From Solirubrobacterales bacterium (lineage in GTDB: Bacteria > Actinomycetota > Thermoleophilia > Solirubrobacterales > Solirubrobacteraceae): 64,000 nucleotides of DNA. Positions within the stretch are counted from its first letter, which is position 1. Every line of letters starts with the position of its first letter. The stretch covers positions 663-64,662 of the forward strand of contig JBBSPV010000020.1 in the NCBI GenBank assembly GCA_038258425.1, given 5' to 3'. Shown one piece after another: positions 6,128 through 63,364 of the stretch. The position numbers and the translations under genes are program-made. The notes under the pieces are model-generated. The model saw only the letters and a list, made by a program, of their open reading frames with translations. It was not told where the DNA came from and made no database searches.

Positions 6128-6201
6128 GCCGGAGTAGCTCAGTCGGTTAGAGCAGCGGAATCATAATCCGCGTGTCGGGGGTTCGAGTCCCTCCTCCGGC
6201 A
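6128..6201 (+). tRNA. tRNA with CAT anticodon (elongator Met, or Ile2 if lysidine-modified; not initiator)
   Basis: Manual cloverleaf: acceptor GCCGGAG/CTCCGGC, D-arm TAGCTCAGTCGGTTAGAGCA, anticodon stem GCGGA/TCCGC with loop ATCATAA, T-arm GGGGGTTCGAGTCCCTC. The 1-72 pair is G-C and the anticodon stem lacks a GGG run, so it is not tRNA-fMet. No CCA is encoded. Confidence 0.9.
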
Positions 6202-46255: not shown

Positions 46256-47451
46256 GCGCGGCGCTGGACGTCCGGGGGCTCGTCGTCGCACCGGGCCACG
46301 AGCCGGTCCTGCGTGGGGTGGACCTGTCGGTCGCCGCCGGCGAGCGCGCCGTGCTCGTCGGGCCGAGCGGCGCCGGCAAGACGACGCTGTTGCGGGCCAT
46401 CGCCGGCCTGCAGCCGGTCGCCGCGGGCACGGTGGCGCTCGGCGGCCGGCGCCTGGACGACTCCGTCGCGCCGCACCGGCGCCGCGTGTCCGTGGTCTTC
46501 CAGGAGCCCCGGCTGCTCCCCCACGCGCGGGTGGACGACAACGTCGCCCTCCCGCTGCGGGCCGCCGGCGTCGGCCGAGGCCCACGGCGGGCCGCGGCCG
46601 CCGCCCGGCTCGAGGAGGTCGGCCTCGCCGGTCTGGCCACCCGCCCGGCGCGCGGGCTCTCCGGCGGGGAGCAGCAGCGCGTGGCCGTGGCCCGGGCGCT
46701 GTGCGGGGACCCGCAGCTGCTGCTGCTCGACGAGCCGTTCGCGGCCGTCGACCCGAACCGGCGGGAGGCGCTGCGGCGGCTGATCGTCGACGTGGGCCGC
46801 GAGCGGGCGCTGACGACGCTCGTGGTCACCCACGATCGCACCGAGGCGGCCGAGCTCGCCGAGTCGCTCGCCGTCATGCTCGCCGGGCGCATCGCCCAGC
46901 AGGCGCCGCCGTGGCGGCTGTTCGAGCAGCCGGCGAGCGCCGCCGTGGCGCGCTTCTTCGGCGCCGTCAACGTCCTGCGCGGCCAGGTGACCGGCGGCCG
47001 GCTGCGGCTGGACGACGGGACCTGCCTGGCGGTCGACGGCGCCGACGGCGACGCGACCTACGTCATCCGGCCCGAGCGGGTGCGGATCGGGGCGGGGCAC
47101 CTGCGCGCGGAGATCCTCGCCGCGGTCTACGCCGGCACCCACGTGCGGGTCACCCTGCGCCTCGGCGCGCAGCTGCTGACCGCCCACGTGCCGCCCGGGA
47201 CCGCGGTTGCGCCGGGCGCCGTGGTGGCCGTCGAGGCGCCGCGGGACGCGCTCTGGCGGCTGCCCGTCGTCGGGGCATCGGGCTCAGCCGAGGACGAGGA
47301 CGGCCATGCGGATCCGCTGGAGCACGGTGACCCCGACCAGGCCGGCGAAGATCCACGCGATGGTCGCCGCCGCCCCGGGGAACAGACACACGGCGACGTA
47401 GGCCACGATCGTCTCGGTGCCCTCCGCGAGGCCGGGGGTCAGGCGCAGTGA
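46252..47451 (+). CDS. ABC transporter ATP-binding protein
   Basis: Walker A GPSGAGKTT, signature LSGGEQQR, Walker B LLLLDEPF. After about 47270 the frame looks non-native and overlaps the convergent gene by 168 nt. Confidence 0.8.
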   Translation: MSAALDVRGLVVAPGHEPVLRGVDLSVAAGERAVLVGPSGAGKTTLLRAIAGLQPVAAGTVALGGRRLDDSVAPHRRRVSVVFQEPRLLPHARVDDNVALPLRAAGVGRGPRRAAAAARLEEVGLAGLATRPARGLSGGEQQRVAVARALCGDPQLLLLDEPFAAVDPNRREALRRLIVDVGRERALTTLVVTHDRTEAAELAESLAVMLAGRIAQQAPPWRLFEQPASAAVARFFGAVNVLRGQVTGGRLRLDDGTCLAVDGADGDATYVIRPERVRIGAGHLRAEILAAVYAGTHVRVTLRLGAQLLTAHVPPGTAVAPGAVVAVEAPRDALWRLPVVGASGSAEDEDGHADPLEHGDPDQAGEDPRDGRRRPGEQTHGDVGHDRLGALREAGGQAQ

Positions 47452-47942: not shown

Positions 47943-48446
47943 ATGCACGCCAAGCGCCCGAGCCTGCGCGCCGCCCAGGCCGTCGCCCTGCTCACCGGCG
48001 CGCTGTTCCTCACGGCCGTCGTGGCCCCGGAGGCCGGGCGCTTCTACTGGACGCCGCTGACGCTCGGCGTGACCTACCTCGCCGCCGCCCTCCTCGGCCG
48101 GCGCGACGGTGGTCACTGGGCCACCGCCTGCGGGCTGTGCGGCTGGGGCGCCGCCGTGGTCTACGCGGGCGCCGCCCGCCCCGACCTCGACACGTCCGGG
48201 CTCTACCTCGCGGGGGCCGGCCTGGGCATGGCGGCGGGCGTCCTGCTCGACCGCGCGGGGGTGCCGGTCAGCACGCTCGGGCTCGCGGTCACGATTCTCG
48301 CTGGCGGCGCCGTGCTCGCGCTGACCGCGAGGTTCCCCGACGTGCTCGAGGACGCACACACCTACGCCGCCGCGCTGGCCCTCGTCGCCGTCGTGAATCT
48401 CGGCCTGGCGGCCCGCGAGCTGCGCGCCGGGCGGGCAGAGCCGTGA
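47943..48446 (+). CDS. hypothetical membrane protein
   Basis: 167 aa with 4-5 hydrophobic segments. No motif recognised. Confidence 0.5.
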   Translation: MHAKRPSLRAAQAVALLTGALFLTAVVAPEAGRFYWTPLTLGVTYLAAALLGRRDGGHWATACGLCGWGAAVVYAGAARPDLDTSGLYLAGAGLGMAAGVLLDRAGVPVSTLGLAVTILAGGAVLALTARFPDVLEDAHTYAAALALVAVVNLGLAARELRAGRAEP

Positions 48447-48512: not shown

Positions 48513-49136
48513 GTGCGGGTACGGTGGCCGGCGGTGACTGCCGATCGCATCCGCGCGGGAAGCGCCGCTCGGACACCGCCCGACGAGGACCTCGTGCGCC
48601 GGGCCCAGGAGGGCCGGCAGGACGCCTTCGAGGTCCTCGTGCGCCGGCACGCCGATCAGCTCCACGCGATCGTGCTGCGCTTCTGTGGCGACGCCGGCGA
48701 CGCCGAGGAGATCGTCCAGGAGACGTTCCTGCGCGCCTGGCGTGGCCTGGGCGGCTTCGAGGGGCGCTCGCAGTTCTTCACCTGGCTGTGCCGGATCGGC
48801 CTCAACGAGGCCAAGCGCCGGGGCAGCCGCCGGGCCCGGGGCGACGGCGCGGGCGCTGTCGACGCGGCGGCCGCCGAACTGCCCGACAGCCGGCGCTCTC
48901 CGGAGACCGAGGCCGAGCGCCACGCCCTCCGCGCCGCGTTGGAGGACGCCGTCCGCGACCTCCCGGCGCGCTACCGCGCGCCGCTGATCCTGCGCGACAT
49001 CGAGGGCCTGAGCACGGAACAGGCCGCCGCGGTGATGGAGCTCGGCGAGGCCGCCTTCAAGAGCCGCCTGCACCGCGCGCGCCTCGCCGTCCGTCGGGCA
49101 CTGCGCGCGACCCTCGACAGCCAGCACCCCGACTGA
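48513..49136 (+). CDS. ECF-type RNA polymerase sigma factor
   Basis: Region 2: FEVLVRRHADQLHAIVLRF...DAEEIVQETFLRAW. Region 4: LPARYRAPLILRDIEGLSTEQAAAVMELGEAAFKSRLHRAR. Confidence 0.85.
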   Translation: MRVRWPAVTADRIRAGSAARTPPDEDLVRRAQEGRQDAFEVLVRRHADQLHAIVLRFCGDAGDAEEIVQETFLRAWRGLGGFEGRSQFFTWLCRIGLNEAKRRGSRRARGDGAGAVDAAAAELPDSRRSPETEAERHALRAALEDAVRDLPARYRAPLILRDIEGLSTEQAAAVMELGEAAFKSRLHRARLAVRRALRATLDSQHPD

Positions 49137-49137
49137 C

Positions 49138-49377
49138 GTGAACCCCCGGCACCTGATCGACCATCTCTGGACGCGACCGCGCCTGTCGGCCTACCTCGAC
49201 GGCGAGCTCGACCCGTCCCAGCGGGCACGGGTCGAGCGACACACCGGGCGCTGCCCGCGCTGCCAGGCGCTGCTGGCGTCGCTGCGGCGGATCCGGGACG
49301 GCCTCGCCGCGCTGCCCCTGCGGCCGGCCGCCCCCGGGCGGGCGGACGCGGTCATGGCTCGGCTGGGGCGGACGTGA
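49138..49377 (+). CDS. zinc-finger (zf-HC2 / ZAS-type) anti-sigma factor, short cytoplasmic form
   Basis: 79 aa with LSAYLDGELD and HTGRCPRCQ (H-x3-C-x2-C). No TM segment. It starts 2 nt after the sigma gene stop. Confidence 0.75.
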   Translation: MNPRHLIDHLWTRPRLSAYLDGELDPSQRARVERHTGRCPRCQALLASLRRIRDGLAALPLRPAAPGRADAVMARLGRT

Positions 49378-49988
49378 AGGGTCGCCTCGGCCGCCGGGGC
49401 GCGCGCGCCATGGTCCCGGCGCCGCTGGGCCCGGGCGATCCGGTCCCGGAGCTGACGCTCACCGACACGCGCGGCACGCAGGTGCAGCTCGCCGCGCTCG
49501 GCGGGGTCGAGACCCTGCTGATCTTCCTCCGCCATCTCGCCTGACTGCCGTGTCGCGAGCACCTGGTCGAGGTGCTGAACGAGCGGCCGGCCCTCGACGT
49601 GCGCGTCGTCGTCGTGGGCTTCGCCGCCGCCGGGGCGCTGGGCGAGTACCAGCACCGCCTCGGCCTCGACGACGTCCCGGTGCTCAGCGATGCCGAGCGC
49701 CGCAGCTACGCGGCGTTCGGCCTCGGCCGCGGATCGACGGCCCGCGTCTGGCTGCACCCGCGCGTGTGGCGGCGCTACTGGCAGCTGCTGCGCGCCGGCC
49801 ACCGGCTGCAGGCCGCGCACGAGGACACGCGCCAGCTCGGCGGCGACGCGCTGCTCGGCCCGGACGGGCGGGTCCAGTGGATCCACCGCAGCCGCGGTCC
49901 CGAGGACCGGCCGAGCCTCGAGACCGTGCGCCGGGAGATCGAGCGTGGGCGTGCGCATCGGCGGCCGCCGGCGGCACCCGGCCCTTGA
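49374..49988 (+). CDS. AhpC/TSA-type peroxiredoxin-like thiol oxidoreductase interrupted by one in-frame TGA (candidate selenocysteine, or nonsense pseudogene)
   Basis: GTG 49374 (GTGA overlap with the anti-sigma stop) reads ...PELTLTDTRGTQVQLAALGGVETLLIFLRHLA-TGA-LPCREHLVEVLNERPALDVRVVVVGF..., in the same frame as track ORF 49572..49988. The TGA (49542-49544) occupies the first position of the expected CxxC. Confidence 0.6.
49558..49576 (+). other. hairpin 13 nt downstream of the in-frame TGA (SECIS-like candidate)
   Basis: AGCACCU-GGUCG-AGGUGCU: a 7-bp stem with a 5-nt G-rich apical loop that starts 21 nt after the UGA. Confidence 0.3.
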
Positions 49989-55642: not shown

Positions 55643-56455
55643 GTGTCCACGCAGGAGAGCCCTTCAGCAGACCAGGTCGGCGACAAGCTCTCCGGCCGCG
55701 TCGCCTTCGTCACCGGTGGGACGCGCGGCATCGGCGCCGCCATCTGCCGCAGTCTGGCGACGCAGGGCGCGACCGTCGCCGCCGGCTACCACTCCGGTGA
55801 GGAGCAGGCCGAGGCGCTGTGCGCCGAGCTCGCCGAGGCCGGGACCGAGGCGTCGACCCACCAGGGCAACGTCGGCTCAGCCGACGACTGCCGGCGTACC
55901 GTGCAGGAGGTCATCGACCGCCACGGCCGGCTCGACATCCTCGTCAACAACGCCGGCATCACGTCGGACAAGCGGGTGCTCAAGATGTCCGACGAGGACT
56001 GGTACAAGGTCATCGCGGTCAACCTGTCGGGCGCGTTCTTCATGTCCCAGGCCGTGCTCCCGCACATGCTCGAGCGCGGGTCGGGGCGCATCGTGAACAT
56101 CTCCTCGATCATCGGCGAGATCGGCAACATCGGGCAGGTCAACTACGCGGCGTCGAAGTCCGGGCTCTTCGGGCTCACGAAGTCGCTCGCACGCGAGGCG
56201 GCATCGGCGCTCACGCGCGACGGCAAGGCAGGCGGGCTCGGGGTCACGGTGAACACCGTCACCCCGGGGTTCGTGGCCACGGACATGGTGGAGGCCATGC
56301 CGCAGAAGGCCAAGGAGGCCCTCAAGGAGCAGATCCCGCTCGGCCGGCTCGGCGAGCCCCATGAGGTGGCGCGGATCGTGCACTTCCTCGCCGCGGACGC
56401 GTCGGGCTACATCACCGGCCAGGTCTGGGGCGTCAACGGCGGCATGGACATGTAG
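55643..56455 (+). CDS. acetoacetyl-CoA reductase / 3-oxoacyl reductase (SDR, PhaB/FabG-like)
   Basis: VTGGTRGIG, NNAG, and YAASKSG (YxxxK). GTG 55643 follows a GAGGAGAGAG ribosome-binding site. It contains a ~15-aa insertion (ASALTRDGKAGGLG). Confidence 0.8.
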   Translation: MSTQESPSADQVGDKLSGRVAFVTGGTRGIGAAICRSLATQGATVAAGYHSGEEQAEALCAELAEAGTEASTHQGNVGSADDCRRTVQEVIDRHGRLDILVNNAGITSDKRVLKMSDEDWYKVIAVNLSGAFFMSQAVLPHMLERGSGRIVNISSIIGEIGNIGQVNYAASKSGLFGLTKSLAREAASALTRDGKAGGLGVTVNTVTPGFVATDMVEAMPQKAKEALKEQIPLGRLGEPHEVARIVHFLAADASGYITGQVWGVNGGMDM

Positions 56456-57253: not shown

Positions 57254-57991
57254 GTGAGCGTTCCCGCCGCCCGTCCCGCGGAGCCCGTCACCGCGGTCGC
57301 CGAGCACGACGTCGTCCGGCCGGTCCTCGAGCAGGCCTGGACCCGGGTCACCTACCTGCACTGGCCGTAAGACCCGGAGGCGGTGCGGGCGCTCCTGCCC
57401 CGCGGGGTCGGGCCCGACGTCGTCGACGGCGTCACCTGGGTCGGCCTGATCGCCTTCGCGATGCGGCGGGTCGGCGTCCTCGGCCTGCCGCCCCTCCCCT
57501 ATCTGTCGGCGTTCCTCGAGACCAACGTGCGCCTCTACAGCGTCGACGCCCGCGGCCGCCGCAGCGTCGTGTTCCTGAGCCTGGACGCCGACCGCCTGCT
57601 TCCGGTGCTGGCGGCCCGGGCCGGCTACCGCCTGCCCTACGTGTGGTCCTCCATGCGCCTGCACGAGCGCGCGGACGTGCTCACCTACACCACCCGCCGC
57701 CGGGGCGGCGGTGTCCGGTCGACCCTTCGTGTGCGCCTCGGCGGCGACGTGGAAGCCGACCCGCTCGACGACTTCCTGACGGCGCGCTGGGGTCTGCACA
57801 ACCGGTGGTACGGCGCGACCGCCTACGCCCCCGTCGCCCACCAGCGGTGGCCGCTGCGCGCCGCCGAGCTGCTCGAGCTCGACGACGGGCTGGTCACGGC
57901 GACCGGCCTCCCCGCCCCCGTCGGCCCGCCGCGCGTGCTGTACTCGCCCGGCGTGGACGTCCGCATCGGCAGGCCGTCGCGACTCCGTTGA
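57254..57991 (+). pseudogene. DUF2071 (YqjF-like) protein with an in-frame TAA
   Basis: GTG 57254 reads ...VLEQAWTRVTYLHWP-TAA-DPEAVRALLPRGVGPDVVDGVTWVGLIAFAM..., in one continuous frame with track ORF 57383..57991. The family N-terminus (Q.W..L.FLHW) lies upstream of the stop at 57368-57370. Confidence 0.65.
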
Positions 57992-60868: not shown

Positions 60869-63364
60869 GTGACCCCCCTGCTGTACCGGCTCGGCCGGGC
60901 CTGCGTCGCGCACCGCTGGGTCGTGGTCGGGATCTGGCTCGTCGTCTTCATCGTGCTCGCCGCGTGGGCACGTGCGGAGGGCCCCAACGTCAACGACAAC
61001 CTCACGCTGCCCGGCAGCGACAGCCAGCGTGCCACGGACGTGCTCGCCAAGCGCTTCGCGTCCAAGGCCAACGGCACCAACCCGGTGGTTCTCATCGCCC
61101 CCCAGGGCCAGAAGCTCACGGACTCCAGGTACGCGACACCCGTGGCCGACACCACCAAGGCCCTGAAGGGCGACTCGGCCGTGCGCGCGGCGGTGAGCCC
61201 GCTGACCCAGAAGGGCAAGGCCAACCTGTCCAAGGACAAGGGCACGGGCTTCATCTCGCTCGAGCTGCGCCTGAGCCCGTCGCAGCTCGACCTGGACACC
61301 GCCGACCGGCTGGTCGGCGAGGCCGATCCGGCGCGCAAGGCCGGGCTCTCGGTCGGCTACGGAGGCTACCTCGGCCAGAAGGTCTCCAAGCCCGAGACGC
61401 ACGTCAGCGAGGTCGTCGGCCTCGGCATGGCGGTCATCGTGCTGTTGCTGACCTTCGGCACCGTCGTGGCCATGGGCCTGCCGATCATCACCGCGCTGAT
61501 CGGCCTCGTCAGCGGCCTGTCGATCGTCACGCTGCTCAGCCAGGTGGCCGAGGTGCCGACCGTCGCCCCGACGCTCGCGACGATGATCGGGCTGGGCGTG
61601 GGCATCGACTACGCGCTGTTCGTGGTCACCCGCCACCAGGCGCAGCGGCGCGAGGGGATGGACACGCGAGAATCGATCGCCCGGGCCACCGCCACGTCGG
61701 GCGGGGCGATCGTGTTCGCGGGCACCACGGTGATCGTCGCGCTGCTCTCGCTGATCGTCGTCGACATCCCGCTCGTGACGACGCTCGGCTACACCTCCGC
61801 GCTCGTCGTCCTCGTCGCCGTGCTCACCGCCATCACACTGCTGCCGGCGCTGCTGGCCGTCGTGGGCGACCGGATCGACCGGTTGAGGCTCCCGCATCGC
61901 CACCCGTCGGCGGACGACCACCCGCACGGCTGGGCCCGCTGGGGCGAGGCGGTCGCCCGCCGGCCGCTGCCCGCGCTCCTGGGGGCGGTCGTCGTGCTCG
62001 CGCTGCTCGCGGTGCCGACGCTCGACCTCTACCTCGGCCAGCAGGACAACGGCGCCCTGCCCAAGAGCACCGACGCCCGCCGCGCCTACGACGGCATCAC
62101 CGCCGGGTTCGGGCCGGGCACCAACGGCCCACTGCTCATCAGCGTGGACCTCTCGGCCAAGCCGGCGAAGGCCGACCAGGACCAGCTGAGCAAGCTCGAC
62201 AGCTCGGAGAAGTCCGACAAGTCGAAGGCGAAGAAGTCGGCCGACGAGCAGGCGAACCAGATCGCCGCGCAGCTCGAGGCGCAGGGCGTGCCACCCCAGC
62301 AGGCCCAGTCGCAGGCGCAGTCCCAGGTCAAGCCCGGCCTCGACAAGCAGGACTCGAAGATCTCGAAGTCCTACGGCGACAAGCGCAGGCAGGCGCAGCA
62401 GAGCGCGACGGACCCGCGCCTGCAGACGCTGCGCGACGACCTGGGCAAGACCAGCGGCGTCAAGTCGGTAACCCAGCCCCTGGTCAACCCCAAGGGCACC
62501 GCCGCCGTGATGACCGTGACGCCGACGACCGCGCCCTCGGACCGCAGGACGGAGCAGCTCGTGCGCCGCCTGCGTGACACGACGATCCCCAAGGCCACCA
62601 AGGGCCAGGGGCTGACCGCCGACGTCGGGGGCACGACCGCCGGCTACGTCGACCTTGCTGACGAGATCTCCAGCCGCCTGGTCCTGACCATCCTCGTCGT
62701 CGTCGCGCTGAGCTTCCTGCTGCTCGTCATGGCCTTCCGCTCCATCGTCATCCCGCTCACCGCGGGCCTGATGAACCTCATCTCGATCGGGGCGGCCTTC
62801 GGCGTCGTGTCGGCCGTGTTCGAGAAGGGCTGGGGGATCGGCCTCGTCGGCCTGGACTCGGAGGTGCCGATCGTCTCCTTCGTGCCGCTGATGATGTTCG
62901 CCATCCTCTTCGGGCTCTCGATGGACTACGAGGTCTTCCTCATGACCCACATCCGCGAGGCGTGGCTGCGCACGGGCGACAACCGGGCCTCCGTCGTGCA
63001 CGGCATCGCGACCACGGGCCGGGTCATCACCTCGGCGGCCCTGATCATGGTCAGCGTCTTCTTCGCGTTCATCATCAACGGCGACCCGACGGTCAAGCAG
63101 TTCGGCGTCGGCATGGGTGTCGCCGTCGCCGTCGACGCGACCCTCGTGCGCTGCCTGCTCGTGCCGGCGGTCATGCTCATGCTCGGCCGGGCCAACTGGT
63201 GGTTCCCGCGCTGGCTGGACCGCGTCGTGCCGAACGTCTCCATCGAGGGCGAGGAGTGGTTCGCCGAGCACGACGCCGCCCTCAGGCGGGAGGCGGAGGC
63301 TCGGGAGGCGCCGCTGGACGGCCCCGGCCCGGGCGGACCCCGGGCAGGCGCGGCAGCGAGCTGA
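60869..63364 (+). CDS. MMPL-family (RND superfamily) membrane transporter
   Basis: Two 6-TM bundles (GVGIDYALFVVTRH, FGLSMDYEVFLMTHIRE) each follow a soluble loop. GTG 60869 (VTPLLYRLGR) is the preferred start. Confidence 0.85.
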   Translation: MTPLLYRLGRACVAHRWVVVGIWLVVFIVLAAWARAEGPNVNDNLTLPGSDSQRATDVLAKRFASKANGTNPVVLIAPQGQKLTDSRYATPVADTTKALKGDSAVRAAVSPLTQKGKANLSKDKGTGFISLELRLSPSQLDLDTADRLVGEADPARKAGLSVGYGGYLGQKVSKPETHVSEVVGLGMAVIVLLLTFGTVVAMGLPIITALIGLVSGLSIVTLLSQVAEVPTVAPTLATMIGLGVGIDYALFVVTRHQAQRREGMDTRESIARATATSGGAIVFAGTTVIVALLSLIVVDIPLVTTLGYTSALVVLVAVLTAITLLPALLAVVGDRIDRLRLPHRHPSADDHPHGWARWGEAVARRPLPALLGAVVVLALLAVPTLDLYLGQQDNGALPKSTDARRAYDGITAGFGPGTNGPLLISVDLSAKPAKADQDQLSKLDSSEKSDKSKAKKSADEQANQIAAQLEAQGVPPQQAQSQAQSQVKPGLDKQDSKISKSYGDKRRQAQQSATDPRLQTLRDDLGKTSGVKSVTQPLVNPKGTAAVMTVTPTTAPSDRRTEQLVRRLRDTTIPKATKGQGLTADVGGTTAGYVDLADEISSRLVLTILVVVALSFLLLVMAFRSIVIPLTAGLMNLISIGAAFGVVSAVFEKGWGIGLVGLDSEVPIVSFVPLMMFAILFGLSMDYEVFLMTHIREAWLRTGDNRASVVHGIATTGRVITSAALIMVSVFFAFIINGDPTVKQFGVGMGVAVAVDATLVRCLLVPAVMLMLGRANWWFPRWLDRVVPNVSIEGEEWFAEHDAALRREAEAREAPLDGPGPGGPRAGAAAS

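What the first reader, a model, noticed from the sequence alone, without database searches (positions are those of the whole stretch)
49374..49988. In-frame TGA exactly at the first Cys of the CxxC motif of a peroxiredoxin-like gene, followed by a hairpin: selenoprotein candidate
Seen in the sequence:
- GTG 49374 overlaps the anti-sigma stop as GTGA. It opens a frame that reads PELTLTDTRGTQVQLAALGGVETLLIFLRHLA, then TGA (49542-49544), then LPCREHLVEVLNERPALDVRVVVVGF....
- The downstream part is track ORF 49572..49988 and is in the same frame (49572-49374=198). The locus is therefore one 204-codon gene with a single interruption.
- A 7-bp hairpin (49558-49576) starts 13 nt after the TGA. Its G-rich 5-nt loop begins 21 nt after the TGA.

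Established knowledge: in AhpC/TSA-fold proteins the segment after the beta-strand (here LLIFLRH) carries the redox C-x-x-C or C-P-x-C. The TGA sits where that first Cys belongs, giving U-L-P-C. Thioredoxin-fold proteins with UxxC are a recurrent class of bacterial selenoproteins. Bacterial SECIS elements are hairpins immediately 3' of the UGA.

Inference: the gene is translationally coupled to an ECF sigma plus a ZAS-type (H-x3-C-x2-C) anti-sigma pair, which suggests a thiol-stress regulon.

Caveat: TGC/TGT to TGA is a single-base change, and this window holds several clear pseudogenes. A nonsense mutation is a real alternative.
Basis: partly seen in the sequence, partly recalled or inferred. 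Interest (0 to 1): 0.75.

Follow-up and report, generated by a model that had tools for sequence, protein, structure and literature searches.

The report
SelL-related selenoprotein gene, mis-annotated as truncated
The in-frame TGA in this thioredoxin-fold redox gene is a conserved selenocysteine codon, not a mutation: over a hundred related soil-actinobacterial genes carry TGA at the same active-site position, and public annotation cuts them short there.

Summary
One reading frame (49374/49410..49988, +) is interrupted only by TGA at 49542-49544, and a 7-bp hairpin (49558-49576) follows it.

The TGA is not a lesion. At this codon, 119 related loci from Thermoleophilia-type genomes and metagenomes have 109 TGA, 10 TGC/TGT and no TAA or TAG. 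Full-length Cys homologues read RHLA-C-LPC at the same place.

Both sides of the TGA are coding:
- GC3 is 0.95 on each side.
- The upstream segment has pN/pS 0.35 in frame, against more than 1 out of frame.
- Leu+1, Cys+3 and His+6 are invariant, although they lie before any possible restart codon.

TGA is otherwise the normal stop codon in this window (30 of 39 strong coding tracks).

The hairpin's apical loop is GGUCG at nt 24-28 after the U of UGA. The proven E. coli fdhF SECIS has GGUC at nt 22-25. The loop G-U is present in 85 of 91 Sec forms but only 2 of 9 Cys forms. Stem stability does not separate the two forms.

Read through, the protein passes NCBIfam NF040769 (SelL-related redox protein). 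The annotated 138-aa fragment fails that cutoff, and NCBI names two truncated relatives "AhpC/TSA family protein".

Two things were not confirmed. Sec machinery in the same genome could not be tested. The link to the ECF sigma/anti-sigma pair is not conserved in other genomes.

Verdict: a real selenoprotein gene, and a new member of a known kind.

The parts
49410..49988 (+). Full selenoprotein gene: 192 codons plus stop, with Sec at codon 45. It is a SelL-related thioredoxin-fold redox protein. The start at ATG 49410 is the best fit to homologue N-termini.
   Evidence: NF040769 scores 143.1 bits against a cutoff of 120 when Sec is written as Cys. Pfam AhpC-TSA_2, Redoxin and AhpC-TSA also match. 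GC3 is 0.95 both upstream and downstream of the TGA.
49374..49409 (+). Possible N-terminal extension. The alternative GTG start overlaps the anti-sigma stop (GTGA).
   Evidence: The Logan gene caller used this start. No homologue has a matching extension.
49542..49544 (+). UGA selenocysteine codon, the first position of the U-L-P-C redox motif.
   Evidence: 109 TGA, 10 TGC/TGT and 0 TAA/TAG at this codon in 119 loci. Full-length homologues carry Cys here. The equivalent Cys42 caps helix alpha-1 in a model with pLDDT 94.9.
49551..49553 (+). TGT, the resolving Cys of the UxxC motif.
   Evidence: Cys is invariant at +3 in 89 of 89 unique Sec-form sequences.
49558..49576 (+). SECIS-type hairpin. 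The 7-bp stem is 49558-49564 paired with 49570-49576. The apical loop GGUCG is 49565-49569, and the G-U at 49566-49567 is the presumed SelB contact.
   Evidence: Present in the MFE fold. Core pairs are kept in 88-89 of 89 sequences, with one C-G to U-A switch and no breaks. Loop G-U is in 85 of 91 Sec forms against 2 of 9 Cys forms. The fdhF loop GGUC lies at nt 22-25, against 24-28 here.
49986..49988 (+). The genuine TGA stop of the gene.
   Evidence: TGA ends 30 of 39 strong coding tracks in the window.
49138..49377 (+). zf-HC2 (ZAS-type) anti-sigma factor. This is context only.
   Evidence: PF13490, E = 2.2e-12. The adjacency is not conserved in other loci.
48513..49136 (+). ECF sigma factor. 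This is context only. An alternative start at 48594 was used by the Logan gene call.
   Evidence: Sigma70_r2, r4_2 and ECF domains. The adjacency is not conserved.

Best explanation
This is an intact gene for a selenocysteine-containing thiol/selenol oxidoreductase of the SelL-related (PRXL2 / AhpC-TSA_2) branch of the thioredoxin fold.

Decoding. When the ribosome reaches UGA 49542, the hairpin 13 nt downstream presents a G-U in its 5-nt apical loop. That loop recruits SelB.GTP.Sec-tRNA(Sec), and selenocysteine is inserted instead of terminating. The product is a 192-aa protein with a U45-L-P-C48 motif at the N-terminus of helix alpha-1.

Chemistry. The selenolate of U45 is the attacking nucleophile. 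C48 resolves the intermediate as a selenenylsulfide, which a cellular thiol reductant then recycles.

Shown here:
- The UGA is conserved and alternates only with Cys codons.
- Both flanks are translated under purifying selection.
- The hairpin is present, with fdhF-like geometry and loop sequence.
- The protein belongs to the family and the fold.

Inferred:
- SelB binding and actual selenium incorporation.
- The substrate and the reductant.
- Co-transcription with the upstream sigma/anti-sigma pair, which at most applies to this genome.
For: - TGA at the exact Cys codon in 109 of 119 loci from Solirubrobacterales, Thermoleophilaceae, Gaiellales and one Acidimicrobiales MAG at 41-66% identity, never TAA or TAG.
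- Full-length homologues read RHLA-C-LPCREHL.
- Truncated database products all begin at the first start codon after the motif. 69 of the top 150 representatives in an unbiased 1.84-billion-protein library show the same truncation, and 60 of 71 full-length ones have CxxC.
- GC3 is 0.95 on both sides. The upstream 33 codons have pN/pS 0.35 in frame, against 1.2 and 2.4 out of frame.
- Leu+1, Cys+3 and His+6 are invariant although 88 of 89 sequences have no start codon for at least 8 codons after the UGA.
- TGA is the ordinary stop here, 30 of 39.
- Hairpin core pairs are kept in 88-89 of 89 sequences. Pair 21-31 switches C-G to U-A in 8 sequences and is never broken. Outer pairs are kept through A-U, C-G and G-C changes that require amino-acid changes.
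- Loop G-U is in 85 of 91 Sec forms and 2 of 9 Cys forms, Fisher p = 3e-6.
- The E. coli fdhF SECIS loop GGUC lies at nt 22-25, against GGUCG at 24-28 here.
- NF040769 scores 143 bits against a cutoff of 120, and distant Sec forms score 122-152.
- In the model (pLDDT 94.9) the Cys sits at the helix alpha-1 N-cap. Foldseek hits are Prx/BCP/AhpE folds and human PGFS, whose CxxC is at residues 44/47.
- An independent assembly has the same TGA.
Against: - No selA, selB, selD or tRNA-Sec was found in the window or in about 790 kb of related DNA. That DNA is a tiny fraction of those genomes, so this is uninformative rather than negative, but the machinery remains unverified.
- Hairpin stability does not discriminate. 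Cys forms fold at least as stably (-12.9 against -10.6 kcal/mol) and show the same excess over synonymous-codon nulls. Much of the stem is therefore inherent to the conserved EHLVEV peptide and the GC-rich codon usage.
- The covariation rests on few independent events, and the G-U test is not corrected for phylogeny.
- The 2026 review states that aerobic bacteria rarely retain selenoproteins (PMC13188914), and cultured Solirubrobacterales are aerobes (own knowledge).
- No experimental selenium data exist for this lineage in the searchable literature.
Confidence: 0.88

Rival explanations
1. Nonsense mutation: TGC/TGT mutated to TGA in a decaying gene (a pseudogene).
For: It is a single-base change. 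A few relatives are genuinely degraded: L038 and L040 are frameshifted and L034 has lost its N-terminus.
Against: TGA is the majority state (109 of 119) across lineages as distant as 41% identity. The rough tree infers Sec at the root. There is purifying selection on both sides. No TAA or TAG occurs at the site.
Confidence: 0.01
2. Sequencing or assembly error at 49544.
For: The window comes from a metagenome-assembled contig, and no read pile-up was available.
Against: The Logan assembly of SRR24807092 has an identical sequence. It may derive from the same reads, but it used a different assembler. More than 100 independent assemblies from different projects carry the same TGA.
Confidence: 0.005
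3. The UGA is read through, but not as selenocysteine. This could be near-cognate or suppressor decoding (Trp, Cys or Gly) or a lineage-wide reassignment of UGA.
For: Sec machinery was not demonstrated. The stem-loop could stimulate generic read-through.
Against: TGA terminates 30 of 39 strong coding tracks in the window, including this gene and the anti-sigma gene. The site alternates only with Cys codons at a catalytic CxxC position. The loop matches the SelB-binding GGUC loop of fdhF in sequence and spacing. The loop G-U is lost preferentially in Cys lineages. The family is related by a curated model to a known selenoprotein.
Confidence: 0.05
4. There are two separate products: a short N-terminal peptide ending at the TGA, and a 138-aa protein re-initiated at GTG 49572, as public annotation implies.
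For: Gene callers predict exactly this.
Against: The segment L-P-C-R-E-H-L-V-E between the TGA and the first start codon is nearly invariant at the protein level, including residues outside the hairpin. The 138-aa product lacks the whole redox motif and beta1-alpha1, and it fails the family cutoff (91 against 120 bits). Cys forms are single 178-183-aa proteins.
Confidence: 0.02

Closest known systems
SelL, a selenoprotein of fish, invertebrates and marine bacteria, described in PMC2398784 as 'a Prx-like protein'. Its UxxU diselenide motif is from my own knowledge of Shchedrina et al. 2007, PNAS.
   Same: Both are thioredoxin/Prx-like folds with Sec in the position of the first Cys of the CxxC motif. 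In bacterial members a SECIS lies inside the coding region just downstream. The curated NCBIfam model named 'SelL-related redox protein' is passed.
   Different: The motif here is U-x-x-C, not U-x-x-U: the second position is Cys in 89 of 89 sequences. The hosts are high-GC soil-type Actinomycetota (Thermoleophilia), not aquatic organisms. It is 'related to' SelL, not SelL itself.
Prx-like thiol:disulfide oxidoreductase and Redoxin-family UxxC selenoproteins (Prx-like 1/2/3 of the Sargasso Sea and GOS surveys; Table 1 of PMC13188914).
   Same: All are Trx-fold proteins with UxxC, abundant Cys homologues and an unknown substrate, and all were predicted by the same comparative logic.
   Different: Those entries are keyed to PF00578, PF08534 or cd02970 (UxxS), with representatives from Deltaproteobacteria or marine reads. 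NF040769 and PF13911 are not listed among the 119 families. Here the Sec form is the majority state (about 90% of close relatives), whereas most GOS families had far more Cys homologues than selenoproteins.
E. coli fdhF SECIS, the experimentally defined bacterial Sec insertion element.
   Same: It is a hairpin starting a few nucleotides after the UGA, with apical loop GGUC at nt 22-25. The loop here is GGUCG at nt 24-28, and G-U occupies loop positions 2-3 in both.
   Different: The loop lies 2 nt further from the UGA. No bulged U is evident in the window's stem, although some relatives have a 1-nt bulge at position 33. SelB binding is untested.
Human prostamide/prostaglandin F synthase (PRXL2B), PDB 9usa/9us9.
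   Same: It is the same PF13911-type fold. Its CxxC is at residues 44/47, against 45/48 here. It appears among both the sequence-profile and the Foldseek hits.
   Different: It is only about 20% identical, it is a Cys enzyme, and it is eukaryotic. Nothing suggests a shared substrate.

Membership tests
Bacterial selenoprotein gene (UGA decoded as Sec) | In-frame UGA aligned with a catalytic Cys in homologues | tested here: met
   Full-length homologues read RHLA-C-LPC. 10 loci have TGC or TGT where 109 have TGA.
Bacterial selenoprotein gene (UGA decoded as Sec) | UGA conserved among orthologues, with protein-level conservation on both sides | tested here: met
   109 of 119 loci have TGA. GC3 is 0.95 on both sides. 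Upstream pN/pS is 0.35 in frame only. Residues between the UGA and the first restart codon are invariant.
Bacterial selenoprotein gene (UGA decoded as Sec) | SECIS hairpin immediately 3' of the UGA, with G-U in the apical loop at about the fdhF distance | tested here: met
   There is a 7-bp stem and the loop GGUCG at nt 24-28, against fdhF GGUC at 22-25. Core pairs are kept in 88-89 of 89 sequences. Loop G-U is in 85 of 91 Sec forms.
Bacterial selenoprotein gene (UGA decoded as Sec) | RNA structure constrained beyond what the peptide dictates, and specific to Sec forms | tested here: inconclusive
   Real hairpins are more stable than synonymous-codon nulls (-10.6 against -8.7, p = 1e-12). Cys forms show the same shift and are more stable (-12.9). 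Only the loop G-U discriminates (Fisher p = 3e-6), and that test is not corrected for phylogeny.
Bacterial selenoprotein gene (UGA decoded as Sec) | selA, selB, selC (tRNA-Sec) and selD present in the same genome | not testable with these tools
The SelA database search listed only enterobacterial hits.
Bacterial selenoprotein gene (UGA decoded as Sec) | Selenium physically incorporated (75Se labelling or MS) | not testable with these tools
   This requires an experiment.
NCBIfam NF040769, SelL-related redox protein | Whole-protein HMM score above the curated cutoff of 120 bits | tested here: met
   The read-through protein scores 143.1 bits. Sec-form relatives score 122-152 and Cys forms 148-167. 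The Gaiella copy scores 103, below the cutoff. The annotated 138-aa fragment scores 91.4 and fails.
NCBIfam NF040769, SelL-related redox protein | Thioredoxin-like fold with the redox motif at the N-terminus of helix alpha-1 | tested here: met
   This was tested on a model of the 65-70%-identical Cys homologue P0002 (pLDDT 94.9). It shows strand 32-36, Cys42, then helix 43-54, and Prx/Trx-fold Foldseek hits at probability 1.00.
SelL proper (UxxU diselenide selenoprotein) | Two Sec residues in a UxxU motif | tested here: not met
   The second position is TGT or TGC (Cys) in the window and in 89 of 89 unique Sec-form sequences.
Canonical peroxiredoxin (AhpC/BCP/Tpx) | Peroxidatic Cys in a PxxxT/SxxC motif | tested here: not met
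   The sequence is F-L-R-H-L-A-U-L-P-C, with no Pro at -7 and no Thr or Ser at -3. The Pfam AhpC-TSA match is only 29.8 bits, weaker than AhpC-TSA_2. NCBIfam peroxiredoxin equivalogs score 20-27 bits against cutoffs of 140-270.
   Only the window has sigma, anti-sigma and this gene in tandem on one strand. Elsewhere there are sporadic, differently oriented hits in fewer than 10 of 119 loci.

The most novel reading that the evidence does not exclude
Sec is the ancestral and still dominant state of a PRXL2/SelL-related oxidoreductase across the class Thermoleophilia and neighbouring deep Actinomycetota, which are largely aerobic soil and desert bacteria. This would imply a widespread Sec-decoding trait in that class that has not been reported. 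It would also imply a selenoprotein family missing from the current inventory of 119 prokaryotic families and systematically truncated in public annotation. The family would have undergone repeated independent Sec-to-Cys reversions (about 9 switches on a rough tree), each followed by decay of the SECIS loop G-U.
Probability: 0.5. Interest if true: 0.55.

Novelty: new member of a known kind. Interest (0 to 1): 0.45.

Why it matters
- **Annotation.** About 90% of the close relatives recovered here have the TGA form, and the gene-called ones appear as 113-148-aa products. NCBI names the two I checked "AhpC/TSA family protein". These products lack their active site and fall below the family cutoff. 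Reading through the UGA restores them and is an easy, general fix.
- **Biology.** The result points to selenium use by Thermoleophilia/Solirubrobacterales, for which I found no report. The current view is that aerobic bacteria rarely keep selenoproteins.
- **Evolution.** The family offers many natural Sec/Cys switches within one orthologous group. The loop G-U seems to decay after Sec is lost, which makes it a compact system for studying how bacterial SECIS elements are gained and lost inside coding sequence.

None of this changes the known mechanism of Sec decoding.

Tried and rejected
- **Sec machinery.**
  - ARAGORN found no tRNA-Sec in the window or in 40 loci.
  - tblastn with E. coli SelA, SelB and SelD against all held DNA found nothing.
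  - A database search with E. coli SelA was meant to match hits to my loci through unique contig lengths. It listed only 120 enterobacterial hits and was useless.
- **Rfam.** There was nothing at gathering thresholds, and only chance miRNA matches in a permissive scan of the element.
- **Literature on Sec in Thermoleophilia, Conexibacter or Solirubrobacter.** Nothing relevant was found.
- **Hairpin stability as a Sec-specific signal.** Rejected, because Cys forms are at least as stable.
- **A thiol-stress regulon via the sigma/anti-sigma pair.** Rejected as a family feature.
- **The CGLC membrane protein (47943-48446) as a redox partner.** Rejected, because its second Cys is not conserved in homologues and it has no Pfam match.
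- **A second selenoprotein gene in the flanking DNA of the same genomes.** Only 3 TGA junctions turned up, none of them recurrent.
- **Neighbour clustering for a conserved partner.** It was dominated by spurious antisense ORFs, and no universal neighbour emerged.
- **Promoter and terminator scan.** It found nothing, and it is not suited to 73% GC DNA.
Full report
**1. The observation**

The stretch 49374-49988 (+) is one reading frame with a single internal stop, TGA at 49542-49544. GTG 49374 overlaps the stop of the upstream zf-HC2 anti-sigma gene as GTGA. The tracked ORF 49572-49988 is in the same frame.

A 7-bp hairpin, AGCACCU-GGUCG-AGGUGCU, lies at 49558-49576 and is part of the minimum-free-energy fold. 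Its folding energy alone is not exceptional, with z = -1.5.

An independent Logan assembly of run SRR24807092 is identical over the 401 aligned bases, TGA included. Homologue N-termini align with ATG 49410 (MVPAPLGPGD...), so the likely product has 192 residues, with the TGA at codon 45.

**2. What the gene is**

With Cys written in place of the stop, the protein matches three Pfam families: AhpC-TSA_2 (PF13911), Redoxin and AhpC-TSA. It also passes the curated cutoff of NCBIfam NF040769, "SelL-related redox protein", at 143.1 bits against 120.

AlphaFold would not accept the Cys-substituted sequence, so I modelled the 65-70%-identical Cys homologue P0002. The model has pLDDT 94.9. It shows strand 32-36 (LVIFL), a short loop, and Cys42 capping helix 43-54, which is the canonical thioredoxin-fold CxxC position.

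Foldseek finds BCP, Tpx and AhpE peroxiredoxin folds. It also finds human prostamide/prostaglandin F synthase (PRXL2B), whose CxxC is at residues 44/47 (sequence-profile hit).

The motif F-L-R-H-L-A-U-L-P-C lacks the PxxxT/SxxC signature of true peroxiredoxins. Peroxiredoxin equivalog models score far below their cutoffs. I therefore treat the protein as a CxxC-type (here UxxC-type) oxidoreductase, not a peroxidase.

**3. Is the TGA a lesion or a codon?**

A protein search gave a bimodal family. About 20 products are full length (178-183 aa) and read RHLA-C-LPCREHL. About 50 products are 113-148 aa and all start at the first start codon after that motif.

I fetched DNA for 40 loci from species-representative genomes. 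Nearly all are MAGs of Solirubrobacterales, Thermoleophilaceae, Gaiellales or unclassified Actinomycetota, plus one Acidimicrobiales MAG, at 41-66% identity. I also fetched 80 metagenome loci. Both scans were seeded on C-terminal peptides, so they could not favour either codon.

At the first-Cys codon the counts are 109 TGA, 10 TGC/TGT and no TAA or TAG. A nonsense mutation or an assembly error cannot produce that pattern.

In the window, GC at third codon positions is 0.95 both upstream and downstream of the TGA in the same frame. Across Sec-form loci, the 33 codons upstream have pN/pS 0.35 in frame, against 1.2 and 2.4 in the shifted frames.

In 88 of 89 unique sequences there is no ATG, GTG or TTG for at least 8 codons after the UGA. 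Even so, Leu+1, Cys+3 and His+6 are invariant and Leu+7 is kept in 88 of 89. Residues +1 to +3 lie outside the hairpin, so RNA constraint cannot explain their conservation. The UGA must be decoded.

TGA is not reassigned, because it ends 30 of 39 strong coding tracks in the window, including this gene. This site is the only TGA-interrupted coding track in the window.

In an unbiased search of 1.84 billion cluster representatives, 69 of the best 150 are truncated just after the motif, and 60 of 71 full-length ones have CxxC at the aligned position.

**4. The hairpin**

Positions are numbered from the U of UGA as 1.
- Core pairs 20-32, 21-31, 22-30 and 23-29 are formed in 88-89 of 89 unique Sec-form sequences.
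- Pair 21-31 is C-G in 79 sequences, U-A in 8 and U-G in 2, and it is never broken. The U-A switch combines a synonymous His change with a Val-to-Met change.
- The outer pairs persist through A-U, C-G and G-C alternatives that require amino-acid changes on both sides. In one group they persist through a register with a 1-nt bulge.
- The apical loop is N-G-U-N-N. G-U is present in 85 of 91 Sec forms but only 2 of 9 Cys forms, Fisher p = 3e-6.

I extracted the experimentally defined E. coli fdhF element and measured it the same way. Its loop is GGUC at nt 22-25, against GGUCG at nt 24-28 here. That G-U is the SelB contact in E. coli and Moorella; this point is from my own knowledge.

Important caveat. 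I redrew synonymous codons while keeping each peptide. The real Sec-form hairpins are more stable than that null (-10.6 against -8.7 kcal/mol, p = 1e-12). However, the Cys forms show the same excess and are more stable still, at -12.9.

So the stem is largely a property of the conserved EHLVEV peptide in a GC-rich genome, and only the loop G-U separates Sec forms from Cys forms. The covariation reflects few independent events, and the Fisher test ignores phylogeny.

Rfam has no applicable model.

**5. Evolution**

A neighbour-joining tree with Fitch parsimony infers Sec at the midpoint root and at least 9 Sec/Cys switches. This analysis is rough.

Cys forms that are nearest neighbours of Sec forms (L110; P0013 and P0019 judged from the Val residue) keep the loop G-U or Val. 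So does L004, whose nearest neighbours are other Cys forms. The larger Cys clades have Leu, Ile or Met there instead. That is what relaxed constraint on a SECIS would give after loss of Sec.

**6. Context**

The ECF sigma (48513-49136) and zf-HC2 anti-sigma (49138-49377) are real. Their tandem, same-strand position directly upstream is unique to this window among 119 loci. With ATG 49410 as the start there is a 32-nt gap rather than an overlap. A thiol-stress regulon is therefore at most a local arrangement.

- A 167-aa membrane protein (47943-48446) recurs beside the gene in 13 loci. Its CGLC motif is not conserved.
- The other neighbours are a CDP-alcohol phosphatidyltransferase, a HAD hydrolase and a weakly strictosidine-synthase-like protein.

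**7. What could not be shown**

No tRNA-Sec, SelA, SelB or SelD is present in the window or in the roughly 790 kb of related DNA held. That sample is far too small to count as evidence of absence. The SelA database search returned only enterobacterial hits.

I found no paper reporting selenoproteins or Sec machinery in Thermoleophilia. Rubrobacter xylanophilus, another deep-branching actinobacterium, is listed with 5 selenoproteins (PMC1794560).

**8. Comparison with what is known**

Trx-fold UxxC "Prx-like" selenoproteins are a long-established class (PMC1088965, PMC2398784, PMC1794560). SelL is described as a Prx-like selenoprotein shared by eukaryotes and marine bacteria.

This gene passes the SelL-related model, but it has UxxC rather than UxxU, so it is not SelL proper.

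The 2026 inventory of 119 prokaryotic selenoprotein families lists neither NF040769 nor PF13911. Its nearest entries are keyed to PF00578, PF08534 or cd02970 with UxxS (PMC13188914).

NCBI names the truncated products "AhpC/TSA family protein" (MGI9185142.1 and MFN8129997.1). The reason is measurable: the 138-aa fragment scores 91 bits against the 120-bit cutoff, while read-through proteins score 122-152.

**9. Verdict**

This is a genuine selenoprotein gene with an intragenic SECIS-type hairpin (confidence about 0.88). It is a new member of a known kind.

The interest is moderate. The mechanism is textbook. Three things are worth recording:
- The Sec form predominates across a mostly aerobic soil actinobacterial class.
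- The family is systematically mis-annotated in public records.
- Sec has been lost to Cys repeatedly within it.

Noticed in passing
L038:6112, L040:613, L034:6001-6357: Three relatives look genuinely degraded. L038 and L040 keep the TGA but are frameshifted shortly after it. L034 has lost the N-terminal third, including the motif. They may be real pseudogenes or assembly errors.
   Followed up: partly
Family-wide (loci L002-L121): A rough NJ/Fitch analysis puts Sec at the root, with at least 9 Sec/Cys switches. Cys forms that are nearest neighbours of Sec forms keep the loop G-U, while the larger Cys clades have lost it. The 2026 review says Sec-to-Cys changes are rare in bacteria.
   Followed up: partly
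window 49554-49580 and the equivalent region in L004, L007, L026, L045, L057, L110, L113, L114, L119: The hairpins of Cys-form genes are on average more stable than those of Sec-form genes (-12.9 against -10.6 kcal/mol). I have no explanation beyond peptide and codon-usage effects.
   Followed up: partly
window 56453-56455 (+), 57368-57370 (+), 62926-62928 (-): Three other places where two strong coding tracks (GC3 at least 0.9) in the same frame are separated by a single stop (TAG, TAA, TAG). The first looks like an ordinary gene end followed by an in-frame neighbour. The others could be gene junctions or pseudogenes.
   Followed up: no
window 46776-46855 (+): ARAGORN calls an 80-nt tRNA-Val(gac) inside a long coding-like region. 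Rfam's tRNA model at its gathering score does not confirm it, and it reports only tRNA-Met at 6128-6201. This is probably a false positive.
   Followed up: no
window 47943-48446 (+): A 167-aa predicted membrane protein with no Pfam match lies next to the selenoprotein gene in 13 of 119 loci, in varying orientation. Its CGLC motif is not conserved in the homologues.
   Followed up: yes
L024:7006-7079, L032:6921-6995, L033:6941-7011, L035:6893-6964, L037:7000-7071: In one subclade (the U-L-A/S-C forms) a tRNA-Gln(ttg) gene sits about 0.4-0.5 kb downstream of the gene's end, on the opposite strand. This is conserved synteny in that subclade.
   Followed up: no
L035:4418-6010 and about 24 other loci, ending roughly 0.1 kb upstream of the gene on the same strand: A roughly 500-aa ORF recurs directly upstream of the selenoprotein gene in about 25 loci, but not in the window. 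I did not annotate it. High-GC antisense ORFs make this clustering noisy.
   Followed up: no
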